A DNA stretch of 64,000 bases, taken from the NCBI GenBank assembly GCA_964016885.1, contig OZ024759.1, forward strand, positions 20,212,001 to 20,276,000, written 5' to 3'. The stretch comes from Eledone cirrhosa. Taxonomy: Eukaryota. The stretch's first letter is position 1. Each line of letters begins with the position of its first letter. The notes below the pieces were generated by a model. It saw only the letters and a program-made list of their open reading frames with translations. It had not been told where the DNA came from and ran no database searches. Both the position numbers and the translations under genes were made by a program. Positions 19,243-57,132 of the stretch are shown in pieces.

Positions 19243-19303
19243 TTCATTCACCAGTGGTTTCTTGAAAGCAGATATTGTTTCTGTTTTCAGTCGTCAGAAT
19301 GAA
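19243..19303 (-). ncRNA. Type I hammerhead (family D), cleavage site mutated
   Basis: Minus read TTCATT CTGACGA C TGAAAACAGA AACAATA TCTGCTTTCA A GAAA CCA C TGG T G AATGAA; position 17 is G, which is normally not cleaved. Confidence 0.7.
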
Positions 19304-19452
19304 TAAAAAACATGGTGTTTTTATTATTATATATATATATGTATATGTCCCAAGTTATATTGGGGATAACCACATTTATAAAGGTACTCAATACATTAGT
19401 AGAGTGTAAACATCCTTATTTAATATAGAAATGGCTTCTTTGAAATACAAGA

Positions 19453-19487
19453 CTAGGACTGTTTCATTCATATGAAATCATCAGGAA
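19453..19487 (-). ncRNA. Hammerhead-like core (family E), stem I not evident
   Basis: Minus read CTGATGA T TTC ATAT GAA T GAAA CAG TC CTAG; the same family forms the inverted pair at 57415-57530. Confidence 0.45.
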
Positions 19488-19597
19488 TACCGGGTGACAT
19501 AGAAAGTTGTTGATACTTACTGGTTTCCTAGTGATTGGGGATGGTAGTGGTGGTGTTCCTATTTTAAGGATCAGATATCAATATATATATATATATA

Positions 19598-19815
19598 TAG
19601 TTATACTTTGGGAGGGTCATGCTGCCAATAAAAACACATGCACCTGTTGGTTATCACTTCAATTTATTTAAAATTTCCGGTTGGTTGGTTGGTTCGATAA
19701 CCGGATGGTTGTTTATATATTGTCAAAGCTCTTTTGTCACACATACTGTGACCTCCTCAGTGACTGGGTTTTTATTTTGTGTGACTCCTTTGTTCTGTCA
19801 TACACCAACAAGATG
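19598..19815 (+). repeat. Unclassified dispersed repeat starting at (TA)n with GTTATACTT(T)GGGAGGGTCAT
   Basis: Copies at 3864, 33262, 46545 (+) and 57180-57405 (-). Confidence 0.7.
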
Positions 19816-20429
19816 GTTGATATTGATAAAATTAACAAATAATTTGGAGGGATTTATTAAAATTATTAATTACTTCATTATCAAGATGGTATTTATGATA
19901 TAACTAAGTAAATAGTTCTTATATACAAATTTTGTTGGGAGATAATAATTTAATCAAAACCCTATATATTGGACAGATTTTGTTTCATTAAAACCGAAGT
20001 TAGTTTTGGCTGGATTTGTAACAAAACTGTTAAAAGGATATTGGTAACATGACTTAATAAGAGCTTCATATCATCATCATCATCATCATTTCATGTCCAC
20101 AAGAGTATTGGCTACAAAGCTTGGCTAGATGTGGTTCTGCCACAGCTGAACACATTGCTGGGGTCAAGATAGGGGCATCCACACTGCAGCCCTGGGAGTA
20201 TTGATAAGATATTGCTAATCCTATCACTGCAACAAGTAACAGTTTCTTTTAAATTGAAACCCATAAAAGTGGGTGTTATTGTTTCATAGAACCAGATCTG
20301 TTTTGAACAAAGTTAGAGTCAAAAGGTTTTCAATGACCTTTCTAATAATTTTTCCAGTTCTTCCATTTTTATATGGTTTAACCCTTTAGCATTTACATTA
20401 CTCTATATGTACTATTATATTTTCATGGT

Positions 20430-20611
20430 GGTGGATTGGCAGTATCGGTAGAGGGTTGAACGCCATGCTTTCTAGCATAGTTACGTCCCTTTACGGTCTG
20501 AGTTCAAATCCCGTCGAGGTTAACTTTGCCTTTCATCCTTACGGGGTCGATAAAATAAAGTACCAGTAATATACTGGGATAATTGCTGGCCTGGTGCCAA
20601 AAGTAGAAACA
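20430..20611 (+). mobile_element. Meta-type SINE inserted in the piggyBac-like MITE at 20382-20792
   Basis: 16-bp TSD ATTATATTTTCATGGT at 20414-20429 and 20612-20627. Confidence 0.85.
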
Positions 20612-20890
20612 ATTATATTTTCATGGTAAACACTTTATCTCATATAATTATCTCAGATAGTATCGAATCCAGGAGATTTTGATATTATATATTTTGAGAA
20701 CAATACCTTAACATAAATATGGGTGGCTGGTTATGGCCGGTTTGAATAAAAAGAGGTGAGAGAATTCTGGCTAGTTATGGCCAGTTTAAATGATGATGAA
20801 ATCTCTCCAATACTTTCATTTTCTACAAGAGTTAAAAGTTTGGCAATGTTGGTTTATATCAAAACAAAAACTTGTCAGTGCTCACATAAT

Positions 20891-21081
20891 TGTTTCTACT
20901 CTTGGCACAAGGCCAGCAATTACTCAGTGCATTACTGGTACTTTATTTTATCGACCCCGTAAGGATGAAAGGCAAAGTTAACCTCGGCAGGATTTGAACT
21001 CAGATCAGAAAGGGGCGTAACTCTGTGCTACAAAGCATATTGTCCGACTCTCTACCGATACTGCCAAACCACCACCACCAC
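20891..21081 (-). mobile_element. Meta-type SINE
   Basis: Reverse-complement copy with TSD TCAGTGCTC(A/C)CATAAT. Confidence 0.85.
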
Positions 21082-21574
21082 TCAGTGCTCCCATAATGCT
21101 CACTTTATCAATTGTTGATGAAGGCAAGCTGTATATAAATAATTTTATATATACATTTCTGTCAGAAACATGGATTCATGTGCCAAAATTATGAAAGACT
21201 ATGTTGATCTCATGTTTTTGTTTATTAAAAGTATACCTTACACACACACACATATATATATATATATTATATATTTAATGTAAGCTTTTCAACAAAGACT
21301 TATAGGGATGTGTGTGTGTTTGTACACACACACACACACACACACACACACAGAGGAACTATGAAATAAATTACCCATAATGCTGTAAGAAATGTGACCT
21401 TTGCCCAACCTATGATGTGAAAACATTTAGAGTTACAAGTAATTAAATGGAAAGTGGTTTTTTTTTTTTCTCTCACCCTGTAATAGTTAGCCACCACTCA
21501 CACCAACACCTCAACTATTATCACTCCTACCACCACCAACACCTACACCACTACAACTATTTTAACTACTACCA

Positions 21575-54481: not shown

Positions 54482-54679
54482 TGAGAGTTGGCTGAAAAGT
54501 TCATAGGCTAACAATAAAGGATTGATGCTAGAGCTGTGAAATCTTGCATGCATTAATTTCAACTCTACTTATTAATAACTGCATTGTTTCTTTCCAGGGA
54601 CTATGTTGAAAAATAAACCTCATTTAGTCATTCTATGAGAGTATCATGGTCGGATTATGAAGTTTTTAGCTGCCCCTCA
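54482..54679. mobile_element. mariner-type MITE (second copy about 54730-54907)
   Basis: Imperfect TIRs TA|TGAGAGTTGGCTGAAAAGTTCATAGGCT and TTATGAAGTTTTTAGCTGCCCCTCA. Confidence 0.7.
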
Positions 54680-55039
54680 TGTGTGTGTGTATATATATAT
54701 ATATATATATATATATATACACACACAAGGGAAGCTGACTATGAAGGAGTTATGCTAGAGCTATGAAATCTTGTATGCATTAATTTCAACTTGTCTTATT
54801 GATAACTGCATTGTTTCTCTTTGGGGATTATGTTGAAAAATAAATCTCCTTTGGTCATTCCATGAGAGTATCTTGGTCAGCCTCTGAACTTTAGAGTTGA
54901 CCCTTGTAAATAATCCCACTTGCACAATTTCTTGATAATTTTCAAAAGTATTTGAAAATTTTCATGATGATGATGATGATGATATCTTTCATTAAAGGTA
55001 TGATAATGTAATGGTTTAATTATTGTTTTCTACTTTTAG

Positions 55040-55247
55040 AAAATGTAAGAAGATTTTGTTGAAGATTTCCCCTGCATTGGAGAAACTTGCTGAAGCAAAG
55101 AAAACAGAGTCAAACTTAAAGGAAGCTTCACCTGAACCAAGCAAGAACCTACATCCATATATATTACCAGAGACTAAAGGGAACACAGTGTTACTTTCTG
55201 CGACTGCCCTTGCCAAATCTGCAAATATTGTGTACCAAAGTATATGA
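55040..55247 (+). CDS. Probable terminal coding exon of the same HEAT-repeat gene
   Basis: Acceptor TTTTCTACTTTTAG|A. Frame KCKKILLKISPALEKLAEAKKTESNLKEASPEPSKNLHPYILPETKGNTVLLSATALAKSANIVYQSI*. Joined to exon 1090-1279 it completes a HEAT helix (SETDPVIQRKCKKILLKI). Non-repetitive sequence with AATAAA 21 nt after the stop. Confidence 0.6.
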
Positions 55248-55268
55248 TAAATTTACCATATATACTCA

Positions 55269-55274
55269 AATAAA
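55269..55274 (+). terminator. Candidate polyadenylation signal AATAAA
   Basis: First AATAAA after the stop at 55247; the hexamer is common in AT-rich DNA. Confidence 0.3.
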
Positions 55275-55963
55275 AGCTGAGGAATATGTGACCAAATAAT
55301 TGATGGTAGAATGAGGTTTCGGTAAATATTTTGACAATTTTTAACAACTTTAACTTCTACATAAATAAGAAGCTAAAATATCTGGAGTGATTATTTCACA
55401 ATGAAACACTGTTTTTCTACATTTACCATATCGTTGTGAATTTTGTTTATGCATTGCCTTGAGGACATTCCCAACAAATTTGTATTACTTGAACTTTTTA
55501 ATACATAAATATCCCCTACACATACACACATAAATACATGAACGCTGACTGTTTTTTTCTCTGTGATTTAATTATACTTTTTCTTCAATCTTGTTTTTTA
55601 TTTTGCTCGCTAGCTGTATCTTCTTCCCCTTTCTCAGAATCCTTATATAGTGTTTAATCTCTTTCAACTATTCCCTATTCATTTCAGTCTTCCCCTTGTG
55701 TTTTTAATGATCTCCATAACAGTTAAAGAAAATCTTTTTTTTTTAAATAATATCTTAAACTAAAAAAAATATTGCCATTCGTAGAGGATTTGTGAAACAA
55801 AAACTATTTTCTAAACAACACTTAAAACATTTTAACCGTTTATCATTTACATTCTCTATATTTACTATTATATTTTCACAGTAAAGGCTTTATCTCACAT
55901 AATTATCTCGTCGCCATATATTCAAATCGGCTTATATTTGAGTATATACAGTATATCTGTATA

Positions 55964-57020
55964 CAGGATGAATCAGCTATTTGAGAACAAAATTTTAATT
56001 TGAGGAAAATAAAAATATTTATTAGAAAAACCAATATATTGTTATAAGATTTGGTTCAGTACACATATTCTCAAATATACATAACAAAAGTCCACTCAAT
56101 AAAACTATCAGCCTCAATTACAGCTTCAATAAGGCTTTTGAAAAGATTACGTCCATTTTGCTGGTGATCTTTATTCATGTTGGCTATAACATCCCATGGA
56201 GTTCTTGGTGTTGTAGGCATGCTTGTTGGTCTCCTTCTCAACAACACCCCATACATAGTAGCCCAGTGGGGTGAGGGATTAAATCAGGAGAGCTCGAGGC
56301 ACAGTGTTAGGCTCTCTCTCAATGAATCCCCAGACATAGTCGTCCAGGGAAAGGGGACAGTTAAATCAGAAAGCTAAGAGGCACAATGTTAGGCTCCTTC
56401 TCAACAACGCCCCATACATAGTAGACCAGTGGGGTGAGGGATTAGATTAGGAGTGCCTGGAGGTACAATGTTAGGCTCCCTCTCAACGAATCCCCAGACG
56501 TAGTCGTTCAGGGAAGTAGGGCAGGGTTAAATCAGGTAAGCTAAGAGGCAAAATGTTAGGAGTAATATGATCATGAAAATGTTTGGCCATCCACTCCTGG
56601 TATGGAGCAGTCTTTCTGAAACATGTAAGGCCTTCCCTGAGAAATTCTCTTGATCCAGGTCTCCAATGTTTCCATGTAGGATGCTGCATTGACCCTAAAA
56701 CCTTGCAGGAAAAAGTGAGGAGGCATAACATGTCCCTCATTCTTCCAACCCCAAAGACCATCACAAATGATGAGACCTTAATGTGTATATTAGTGGGGTT
56801 GATGCAGAGCCATCTCTCATTCCTCTTGGTCAGCTTCTGATTGTGGACAAAGTTCTTTTCATCTGTGAAGAACCAGAGTATGTTGAGCACTGTGGGATAC
56901 CTGAGTTTCTTCAGCAACATCACGTGGTTCTTCCGGGTTTTATTAGATATGAACAGCCCCTTTTTTTTTCATACCATTAGACTTGTATCTGATATCTTCT
57001 TGAACCACATGTCTGATGGT
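55964..57020 (-). pseudogene. Decayed Tc1/mariner (maT/DD37D-like) transposase with one TIR
   Basis: Frameshifted motifs WFFTDEKNF...NERWL, VMVFGV, SPDL.PL.YYVWG.VE and IEAVIEADSFIE; TA|CAGGATG terminus at 55962-55970. Confidence 0.8.
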
Positions 57021-57061
57021 TGACTCTAAACCATCGAACTGATTGGTAATAAACCTCATTG

Positions 57062-57132
57062 TTTTGTCTGACGAATGAGCTAGATGTTTCTTACAAGAGT
57101 CATCTAGTTTCTTGAAACCTTTGGTAATGAAA
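57062..57132 (+). ncRNA. Type I hammerhead (family D variant)
   Basis: TTTTGT CTGACGA AT GAGCTAGATG...CATCTAGTTT CTT GAAA CC TTT GG TA ATGAAA. Confidence 0.8.

What the first reader, a model, noticed from the sequence alone, without database searches (positions are those of the whole stretch)
19243..57132. Family D shows structure conservation: four different stem II sequences, one fold
Copies at 19243(-), 32533(+), 47267(-) and 57062(+) share GAAACC...GGT and the downstream AATAATT..TGTTGTTTATTA. Stem II differs yet stays paired: TGAAAACAGA/TCTGCTTTCA, GAAGGCAGAC/GTCTGTCTTC, CAGACG/CGTCTG and GAGCTAGATG/CATCTAGTTT. Stem III is a true 3-4 bp hairpin, so these may work as monomers. This is the strongest internal evidence that the motifs were selected as RNA. 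Copy 32533-32603 is the best test candidate.
Basis: seen in the sequence. Interest (0 to 1): 0.75.

Follow-up and report, generated by a model that had tools for sequence, protein, structure and literature searches.

The report
Hydra-clade Penelope retroelement hammerhead ends
These four motifs are truncated ends of a very abundant jumping-gene family, each carrying a hammerhead-shaped RNA whose fold is kept across related subfamilies and which likely cuts the parent element's RNA; this is an ordinary, already described arrangement.

Summary
The four sites are real type I hammerhead motifs. They are 5'-truncated 3' ends of Penelope-like retroelements, with at least 14,337 exact-pattern sites in the genome. 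The same motif flanks a near-complete element whose ORF has the Hydra-clade motifs. Across subfamily representatives the three-helix fold covaries, so selection on RNA structure in the transposing lineages is likely. (1) There are three stem II lineages, not four: 47267 shares the 3' arm of 32533 and its changed 5' arm breaks three pairs. (2) Stem III has 3 bp at most and is marginal; dimers are not excluded. (3) Inserted copies decay neutrally (49 of 173 have a damaged core), and 47267 is trapped by its inverted twin. The loose 10.1-11.1 pair and the quasi-palindromic stem III are already listed for Hydra hammerheads (PMC8557442, File S2). Cleavage is untested. The scan noted similar Hydra hammerheads on other DNA of this genome.

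The parts
19143..19326 (-). 5'-truncated 3' end of a subfamily D2a element: last ~25 nt of 3' UTR, hammerhead, 36-nt downstream segment, ~65-nt tail, then (TA)n
   Evidence: 85% identity over 185 nt to the upstream pLTR of element L150
19243..19303 (-). type I hammerhead: stem I 6 bp, C3 at 19297, stem II 19290-19262 (C.A at 10.1-11.1), G12 at 19261, N17 = G at 19249 (predicted inactive)
   Evidence: other D2a copies have A17
32492..32513 (-). short inverted, tail-less copy of the downstream segment, typical of Penelope-like insertions
32527..32699 (+). 5'-truncated 3' end of a subfamily D1a element with tail, ending in (TA)n
32533..32603 (+). type I hammerhead: stem I 6 bp, C3 at 32539, stem II 32546-32584 (U.U at 10.1-11.1, then U.G and 11 further pairs), G12 at 32585, N17 = A at 32597; best-folding window copy
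   Evidence: stem I P up to 0.8, stem II 0.97, stem III about 0.4
47190..47343 (-). 3' end of a subfamily D1b element with tail; hammerhead 47265-47339, C3 at 47331, N17 = A at 47273, 3x3 internal loop in stem II
47351..47448 (+). inverted, tail-less twin of the D1b copy (C3 at 47352, no stem I); pairs with the 47267 copy and abolishes its predicted hammerhead fold
   Evidence: stem I and II P = 0 with 40-nt flanks
57058..57168 (+). tail-less 3' end of a subfamily D3 element; hammerhead 57058-57136: stem I up to 10 bp with G.U pairs, C3 at 57068, stem II 57075-57113, N17 = A at 57126
   Evidence: stem I P falls to about 0 with 40-nt flanks

Best explanation
Family D is the type I hammerhead motif in the terminal repeat (pLTR) of Hydra-clade Penelope-like retroelements, and the window sites are 5'-truncated, likely inert insertions of three of its lineages. 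Shown: the motif lies upstream and downstream of an ORF with reverse-transcriptase-like and C-terminal endonuclease motifs; copies sit in (TA)n, often with an inverted twin, and end at two fixed distances after the predicted cut site; the fold covaries between subfamilies; single copies mutate in the core as often as elsewhere. Inferred: selection acted on the RNA of the transposing master elements, not on the genomic copies. The hammerhead likely cuts tandem read-through transcripts slowly, helped by pairing of two stems III. Reverse transcription would start 36 or about 100 nt past the cut site, on an uncut or re-ligated RNA.
For: Element L150: hammerhead at 6354, ORF about 6126-4028, 1.5-kb 3' UTR, hammerhead at 2461, all on one strand, 3,893 bp apart. 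37 of 60 stretches fetched around endonuclease hits carry a family D hammerhead within 4.2 kb downstream on the same strand (the 60 were taken from 150 hits). Hydra motifs RWK, DKT, CxCX5C, CxxC and CxH, as defined in PMC8557442 section 11. Copy numbers 10,614 and 3,723, reversed-pattern controls 0. Covariation: 7 representatives, 92.5% paired, score reached by 0 of 500 shuffles, 6 two-sided pairs reached by 10 of 500; 10 other representatives, 87.9% paired, 6 two-sided pairs (3 in stem I) reached by 2 of 500. Core changes 50 of 1,557 sites against 92 of 3,314 in stem II arms, p = 0.41. Ends at 30-49 nt (110 of 236 copies) or 100+ nt (103 of 236) after N17. None of 30 D1b copies picked by their 5' half ends at N17. 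A copy embedded in the 3' UTR of one D4 lineage has G17 in 7 of 8 cases.
Against: No cleavage was measured. The canonical G10.1-C11.1 pair is absent in all four window copies. D1b amplified to at least 203 sites with three mid-stem pairs broken, and D6 has a similar internal loop, so mid-stem II is not strictly held. No ORF was found upstream on the same strand for D1 (0 of 20 stretches of 5.7 kb) or D3 (0 of 30 loci with 1.5 kb upstream): three of the four window copies are tied to Hydra elements only by the shared pLTR, tail and 3' UTR end. The shuffle control ignores relatedness, and I chose the representatives. In the one Penelope-like element studied in vitro, hammerhead mutants did not affect insertion (PMC11167929). 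The G17 internal copy is probably one ancestral event.
Confidence: 0.82

Rival explanations
1. The fold is kept in the master elements, but mainly as a binding or positioning signal for the element's own protein; cutting is negligible in cells.
For: Loose 10.1-11.1 and 10.2-11.2 pairs and a marginal stem III; insertions include sequence past the cut site; low in vitro activity of metazoan Penelope hammerheads (PMC4209133); catalysis dispensable for insertion in vitro (PMC11167929).
Against: The catalytic boxes and a cleavable N17 are kept in every subfamily majority (A17 in 266 of 275 copies); the embedded copy carries G17; a natural U.U 10.1-11.1 variant is described as tolerated (PMC3088659).
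Confidence: 0.1
2. D1 and D3 (three of the four window copies) are non-autonomous, retrozyme-like derivatives carried by the Hydra protein, not ends of coding elements. The hammerhead role would be the same.
For: No own ORF reached for D1 or D3; the shared D1 upstream region fades at about 0.75-1 kb; animal retrozymes are proposed to derive from pLTRs (preprint 10.64898/2026.07.22.740005).
Against: No head-to-tail arrays of D1 or D3 were seen among the fetched loci; sister subfamilies have 1.2-1.6-kb or longer 3' UTRs, so heavy 5' truncation alone can hide the ORF.
Confidence: 0.25
3. The paired stem II variants arose without selection on RNA: hairpin-templated repair, A-to-G editing and CpG decay on both arms, inherited through few master lineages.
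For: Many two-sided changes are transitions; the element makes inverted repeats by itself; mid-stem pairs are lost in D1b and D6.
Against: Stem I, whose arms lie about 60 nt apart across the junction, also has two-sided changes and a length shift compensated on both sides between the two groups; A>G is not enriched in arms at copy level (9 of 965 A sites); the core stays fixed while the stems change.
Confidence: 0.06
4. The individual genomic copies are host-selected ribozymes that work as monomers in host transcripts.
For: Copy 32533 can fold as a monomer.
Against: Neutral decay of the core in copies; one window copy has G17, one is trapped by its inverted twin, one loses stem I in context.
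Confidence: 0.03

Closest known systems
Hydra clade of C-terminal EN+ Penelope-like elements and their hammerheads, including Hydra-1_Obim (Craig et al. 2021, PMC8557442; passages, section 11, supplement search and supplement part 2 of 59 read)
   Same: RWK, DKT, CxCX5C, CxxC/CxH motifs; (TA)n insertion; inverted truncated twins and tail; hammerheads whose File S2 rows often show a mismatch next to the core (U.U in most Hydra magnipapillata rows), then a Y-R pair and G-C, and a stem III of 4+1+4 or 3+3+3 nt. The N-terminus of the L150/L162 ORF resembles Hydra-1_Obim by eye.
   Different: Stem II is 10-13 bp against 3-7 bp in File S2; the 3' UTR is 1.2-1.6 kb or longer and microsatellite-rich, so the unit is about 3.9 kb against under 3 kb; the tail is about 65 nt against 30-40; more than ten subfamilies in one genome.
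Minimal and short-helix-III hammerheads of metazoan Penelope-like elements (Cervera and de la Pena 2014, PMC4209133; parts 1-2 of 4 read)
   Same: Type I, in pLTRs, mostly on truncated single copies, long helix II, families described as full of covariations, proposed to act as dimers.
   Different: Those have one extra base after A9 and a conserved G10.1-C11.1; here the conserved G-C is the third pair, with a loose 2x2 step beside the core, and stem III has three pairs.
PAc Poseidon element of Anolis (Frangieh et al. 2024, PMC11167929; passages read)
   Same: Two fixed 3' ends downstream of the hammerhead, explained there by two internal reverse-transcription starts.
   Different: Different clade; its ORF starts inside the hammerhead, whereas here the ORF starts about 230 nt after it.
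Animal non-LTR retrozymes (PMC7229834, passages; preprint 10.64898/2026.07.22.740005, part 1 of 5)
   Same: Type I hammerhead in a mobile repeat; monomer versus dimer behaviour depends on helix III.
   Different: Those are non-coding tandem units of 170-400 nt; family D copies seen here are dispersed truncated ends, and D2, D4 and D5 lie downstream of an ORF.

Membership tests
type I hammerhead ribozyme | C3-A9 and G12-A15.1 core boxes, U16.1 | tested here: met
   4 of 4 window copies
type I hammerhead ribozyme | H (not G) at position 17 | tested here: met
   3 of 4 window copies; 19249 is G; A in 266 of 275 parsed copies
type I hammerhead ribozyme | three helices around the core, open stem I | tested here: met
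   unconstrained RNAalifold on 7 representatives; pair counts
type I hammerhead ribozyme | canonical G10.1-C11.1 pair (consensus feature with known exceptions) | tested here: not met
   C.A, U.U, A-U, A-U in the four copies; conserved G-C is third pair. Exceptions in PMC3088659 and PMC8557442 File S2
type I hammerhead ribozyme | loop I / loop II tertiary contact | not tested
   loop II varies from 2 to 15 nt with no shared sequence; no contact was modelled
type I hammerhead ribozyme | self-cleavage after N17 | not testable with these tools
   needs bench assay
Rfam hammerhead families | match to an Rfam hammerhead model | tested here: not met
   none among all 56 matches on 6 loci at E up to 10; none among the 150 listed of 401 window matches
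Hydra clade Penelope-like element | single ORF with RT and C-terminal GIY-YIG-type endonuclease | tested here: inconclusive
   RT only weak in Pfam (RVT_1 E 0.009, below cut-off), no Pfam GIY-YIG hit; RT and endonuclease motifs seen by eye; 1,335 homologues at E <= 1e-20, nearly all unnamed; no intact ORF seen
Hydra clade Penelope-like element | RWK and DKT motifs | tested here: met
   RWK intact in L162, broken in L150, L152 and changed in L168; DKT in L150
Hydra clade Penelope-like element | CxCX5C linker; CxxC and CxH around conserved E and N | tested here: met
   L150, L152, L153 and others
Hydra clade Penelope-like element | (TA)n insertion, pLTR, inverted truncated copies, tail | tested here: met
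Hydra clade Penelope-like element | placement inside the clade in an RT tree | not tested
   named reference proteins were available only as supplement text; compared by eye
Hydra clade Penelope-like element | own ORF upstream for subfamilies D1 and D3 | tested here: inconclusive
   0 of 20 and 0 of 30 loci; shown for D2, D4, D5
non-LTR retrozyme | non-coding head-to-tail units of 170-400 nt each with a hammerhead | tested here: not met
   no such array among the family D loci viewed

The most novel reading that the evidence does not exclude
Family D is a catalytically active hammerhead variant in which the conserved G-C pair sits two steps away from the core, tuned for slow or dimer-dependent cutting; more than ten sister subfamilies form a natural mutational series, and the fixed G17 in the UTR-embedded copy is a trace that cutting matters in cells.
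Probability: 0.3. Interest if true: 0.45.

Novelty: new member of a known kind. Interest (0 to 1): 0.22.

Why it matters
The finding adds many subfamilies to a known pairing of hammerheads with Penelope-like elements. Its use is practical. The subfamilies give a natural series for asking how much a hammerhead tolerates next to its core, and whether a 3-bp stem III works alone. The embedded G17 copy bears weakly on the open question of whether these ribozymes cut in vivo. It does not point to a host function for the four copies.

Tried and rejected
Rfam gave only microsatellite and hairpin noise. No RNA holder was listed for the 32533 copy; the laid runs were contigs of unknown kind and say nothing on expression. 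One search used the wrong stem I register for D1/D2/D4 and one search was off by one column; both were discarded and redone. In one search the three mid-stem II columns were left out because bulges misalign there; D5 and D3 bulge placement is ambiguous. The fourth query was in the wrong frame and was replaced. No Hydra ORF trace lies in the window. Walks upstream of D1 and D3 did not reach an ORF. A-to-G editing as the source of stem variation found no support at copy level. A tree-aware simulation of stem II changes was not carried out, so relatedness is not corrected for. Lunse et al. 2016 was not held and is known only through a review passage (PMC6765202). A search by sequence of earlier scan notes was blank.
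Full report
Observation. A descriptor scan finds type I hammerhead layouts at all four sites, with C3 at 19297 (-), 32539 (+), 47331 (-) and 57068 (+) and N17 at 19249, 32597, 47273 and 57126. The shared downstream segment occurs 5 times in the window and in none of 100 shuffles at that number. The fifth is an inverted twin at 47352.

How many stems. Genome searches with three of the copies returned separate subfamilies with 2,024, 2,481 and 1,137 first-look candidates. I call them D1 (32533), D2 (19243) and D3 (57062). The 47267 copy belongs to D1b, with 203 exact sites for its 5' half. 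In 30 D1b loci the 3' arm of stem II is that of D1a, while the 5' arm differs. This gains two pairs beside the core and breaks three in mid-stem. D1 and D2 arms are homologous. So the window holds three lineages, and one of its four stems is a case of uncompensated change.

What it belongs to. The window lies in a 3.0-Gb animal genome rich in AT microsatellites; a cephalopod is my inference. Two exclusive exact patterns give 10,614 and 3,723 sites, with reversed controls at 0. Walking upstream from D2 reached a 3' UTR and then the end of an ORF on the same strand. I fetched 60 of the 150 hits to that ORF end (20 with long frames, 20 top, 20 bottom). 37 of 60 have a family D hammerhead within 4.2 kb downstream, 1 has a truncated one, and 22 have none. 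L150 is near complete: hammerhead, tail, about 120 nt of leader, ORF with one stop and one frameshift, 1.5-kb 3' UTR, second hammerhead without tail, (TA)n. The ORF has RWK (intact in L162), DKT, CxCX5C, CxxC and CxH, the marks of the Hydra clade in PMC8557442 section 11. Pfam support is weak. D5 also lies 1.2-1.4 kb after a related ORF end. For D1 and D3 no ORF was reached; D1 shares its last ~110 nt of 3' UTR with D2 at 76-77%.

Covariation. More than ten subfamilies were seen. I took one real copy per subfamily. For 7 representatives of the first group, 92.5% of cells pair, the covariation score is reached by 0 of 500 shuffles, and 6 pairs change on both sides, reached by 10 of 500; one of the six is the 10.1-11.1 position, unpaired in 4 of 7. 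Unconstrained RNAalifold returns the full three-way junction with 5 two-sided pairs. For 10 representatives of the second group, with three bulged mid-stem columns left out, 87.9% pair and 6 pairs change on both sides, 3 of them in stem I; 2 of 500 shuffles reach this. Slid controls fall to 30-53% paired in both. The shuffles ignore relatedness, so this is support, not proof. The third pair of stem II is G-C or G.U in 17 of 17 representatives; the first two positions are loose.

Where selection acts. Among 173 copies found by similarity, by 3' UTR or by ORF, core positions depart from their subfamily at 50 of 1,557 sites, stem II arms at 92 of 3,314 (p = 0.41), and 49 of 173 have a damaged core. 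Part of the core damage comes from truncation junctions. Copies are therefore not protected after insertion, while subfamily majorities keep the core. In the window, 19243 has G17, 47267 loses its fold to the inverted twin, and 57062 loses stem I with 40-nt flanks; 32533 folds best.

Monomer or dimer. Stem III has three pairs and a 3-nt loop. Alone it is +0.4 kcal/mol; in context P is about 0.4-0.5. As a homodimer helix it is -5.1 (D1), -8.2 (D2, D4) and -3.9 (main D3 form). In D2, D4 and D6 the outer loop bases are complementary, which only a dimer can use. Reviews state that short stems III of up to three pairs have been inactive as monomers in some cases, and that Penelope hammerheads likely act as dimers (PMC6466107; PMC6765202; passages only).

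Mechanism. Shown: position in the pLTR, two 3' end classes at about 36 and 100 nt after N17 (these copies were anchored on the downstream segment), and no copy ending at N17 among 30 picked by their 5' half. Inferred: a tandem arrangement gives a transcript with two hammerheads; cutting is slow or dimer-gated; reverse transcription starts inside the RNA past the cut site, as shown for PAc (PMC11167929), so the template is uncut or re-ligated. One hint that cutting matters: a truncated copy embedded about 300 nt after the stop codon in one D4 lineage has G17 in 7 of 8 cases, while only 2 of the other 270 parsed copies have G17. This is probably a single ancestral change.

Comparison. PMC4209133 (parts 1-2 of 4) already reports genome-wide Penelope hammerhead families with long helix II and compensatory changes. 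File S2 of PMC8557442 lists Hydra hammerheads with a mismatch beside the core and quasi-palindromic stem III, including one from an octopus. Family D differs in a longer stem II, longer 3' UTR and longer tail. Five paper searches showed no test of a Hydra hammerhead, but Lunse et al. 2016 and the supplements of the other papers were not seen and may hold such variants.

Verdict. Real feature, right kind of RNA, known context. New member of a known kind; interest 0.22.

Noticed in passing
window 3521-3569 (-) and 3641-3689 (+); related copy 60374-60418 (+): A second long-stem type I hammerhead family as an inverted pair, with a C.C mismatch in stem II and a self-complementary stem III; very common in fetched loci.
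   Followed up: no
window 6425 (-), 4359 (-), 41234 (+): Minimal Penelope-type hammerheads with a 4-bp stem II and almost no stem III.
   Followed up: no
L192, L196, L199 (two), L202, L209, L242, L207; about 300 nt after the ORF stop: A truncated hammerhead copy embedded in the 3' UTR of one D4 lineage; G17 in 7 of 8.
   Followed up: partly
L335, L343, L346, L348, L349: A D1-related subfamily with a 7-nt deletion in the 3' arm of stem II; by eye it keeps the basal pairs and can form a new short distal hairpin.
   Followed up: no
L102, L156, L208, L275 and others (D5): An abundant subfamily with U4 changed to C in the core and a purine-purine mismatch at 10.1-11.1.
   Followed up: partly
window 19500-19807 (-) and 57170-57620 (+): The same other repeat lies next to both the 19243 and the 57062 copy (89% over 75 nt and 78% over 63 nt), suggesting shared (TA)n targets.
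   Followed up: no
window 40383-40800: Inverted pair of another repeat with a hammerhead-like 5' box at 40726 (+) and 40506 (-).
   Followed up: no
window 57795-58023: Long inverted repeat around a (TA)n tract; source of the best spurious Rfam microRNA hits.
   Followed up: no
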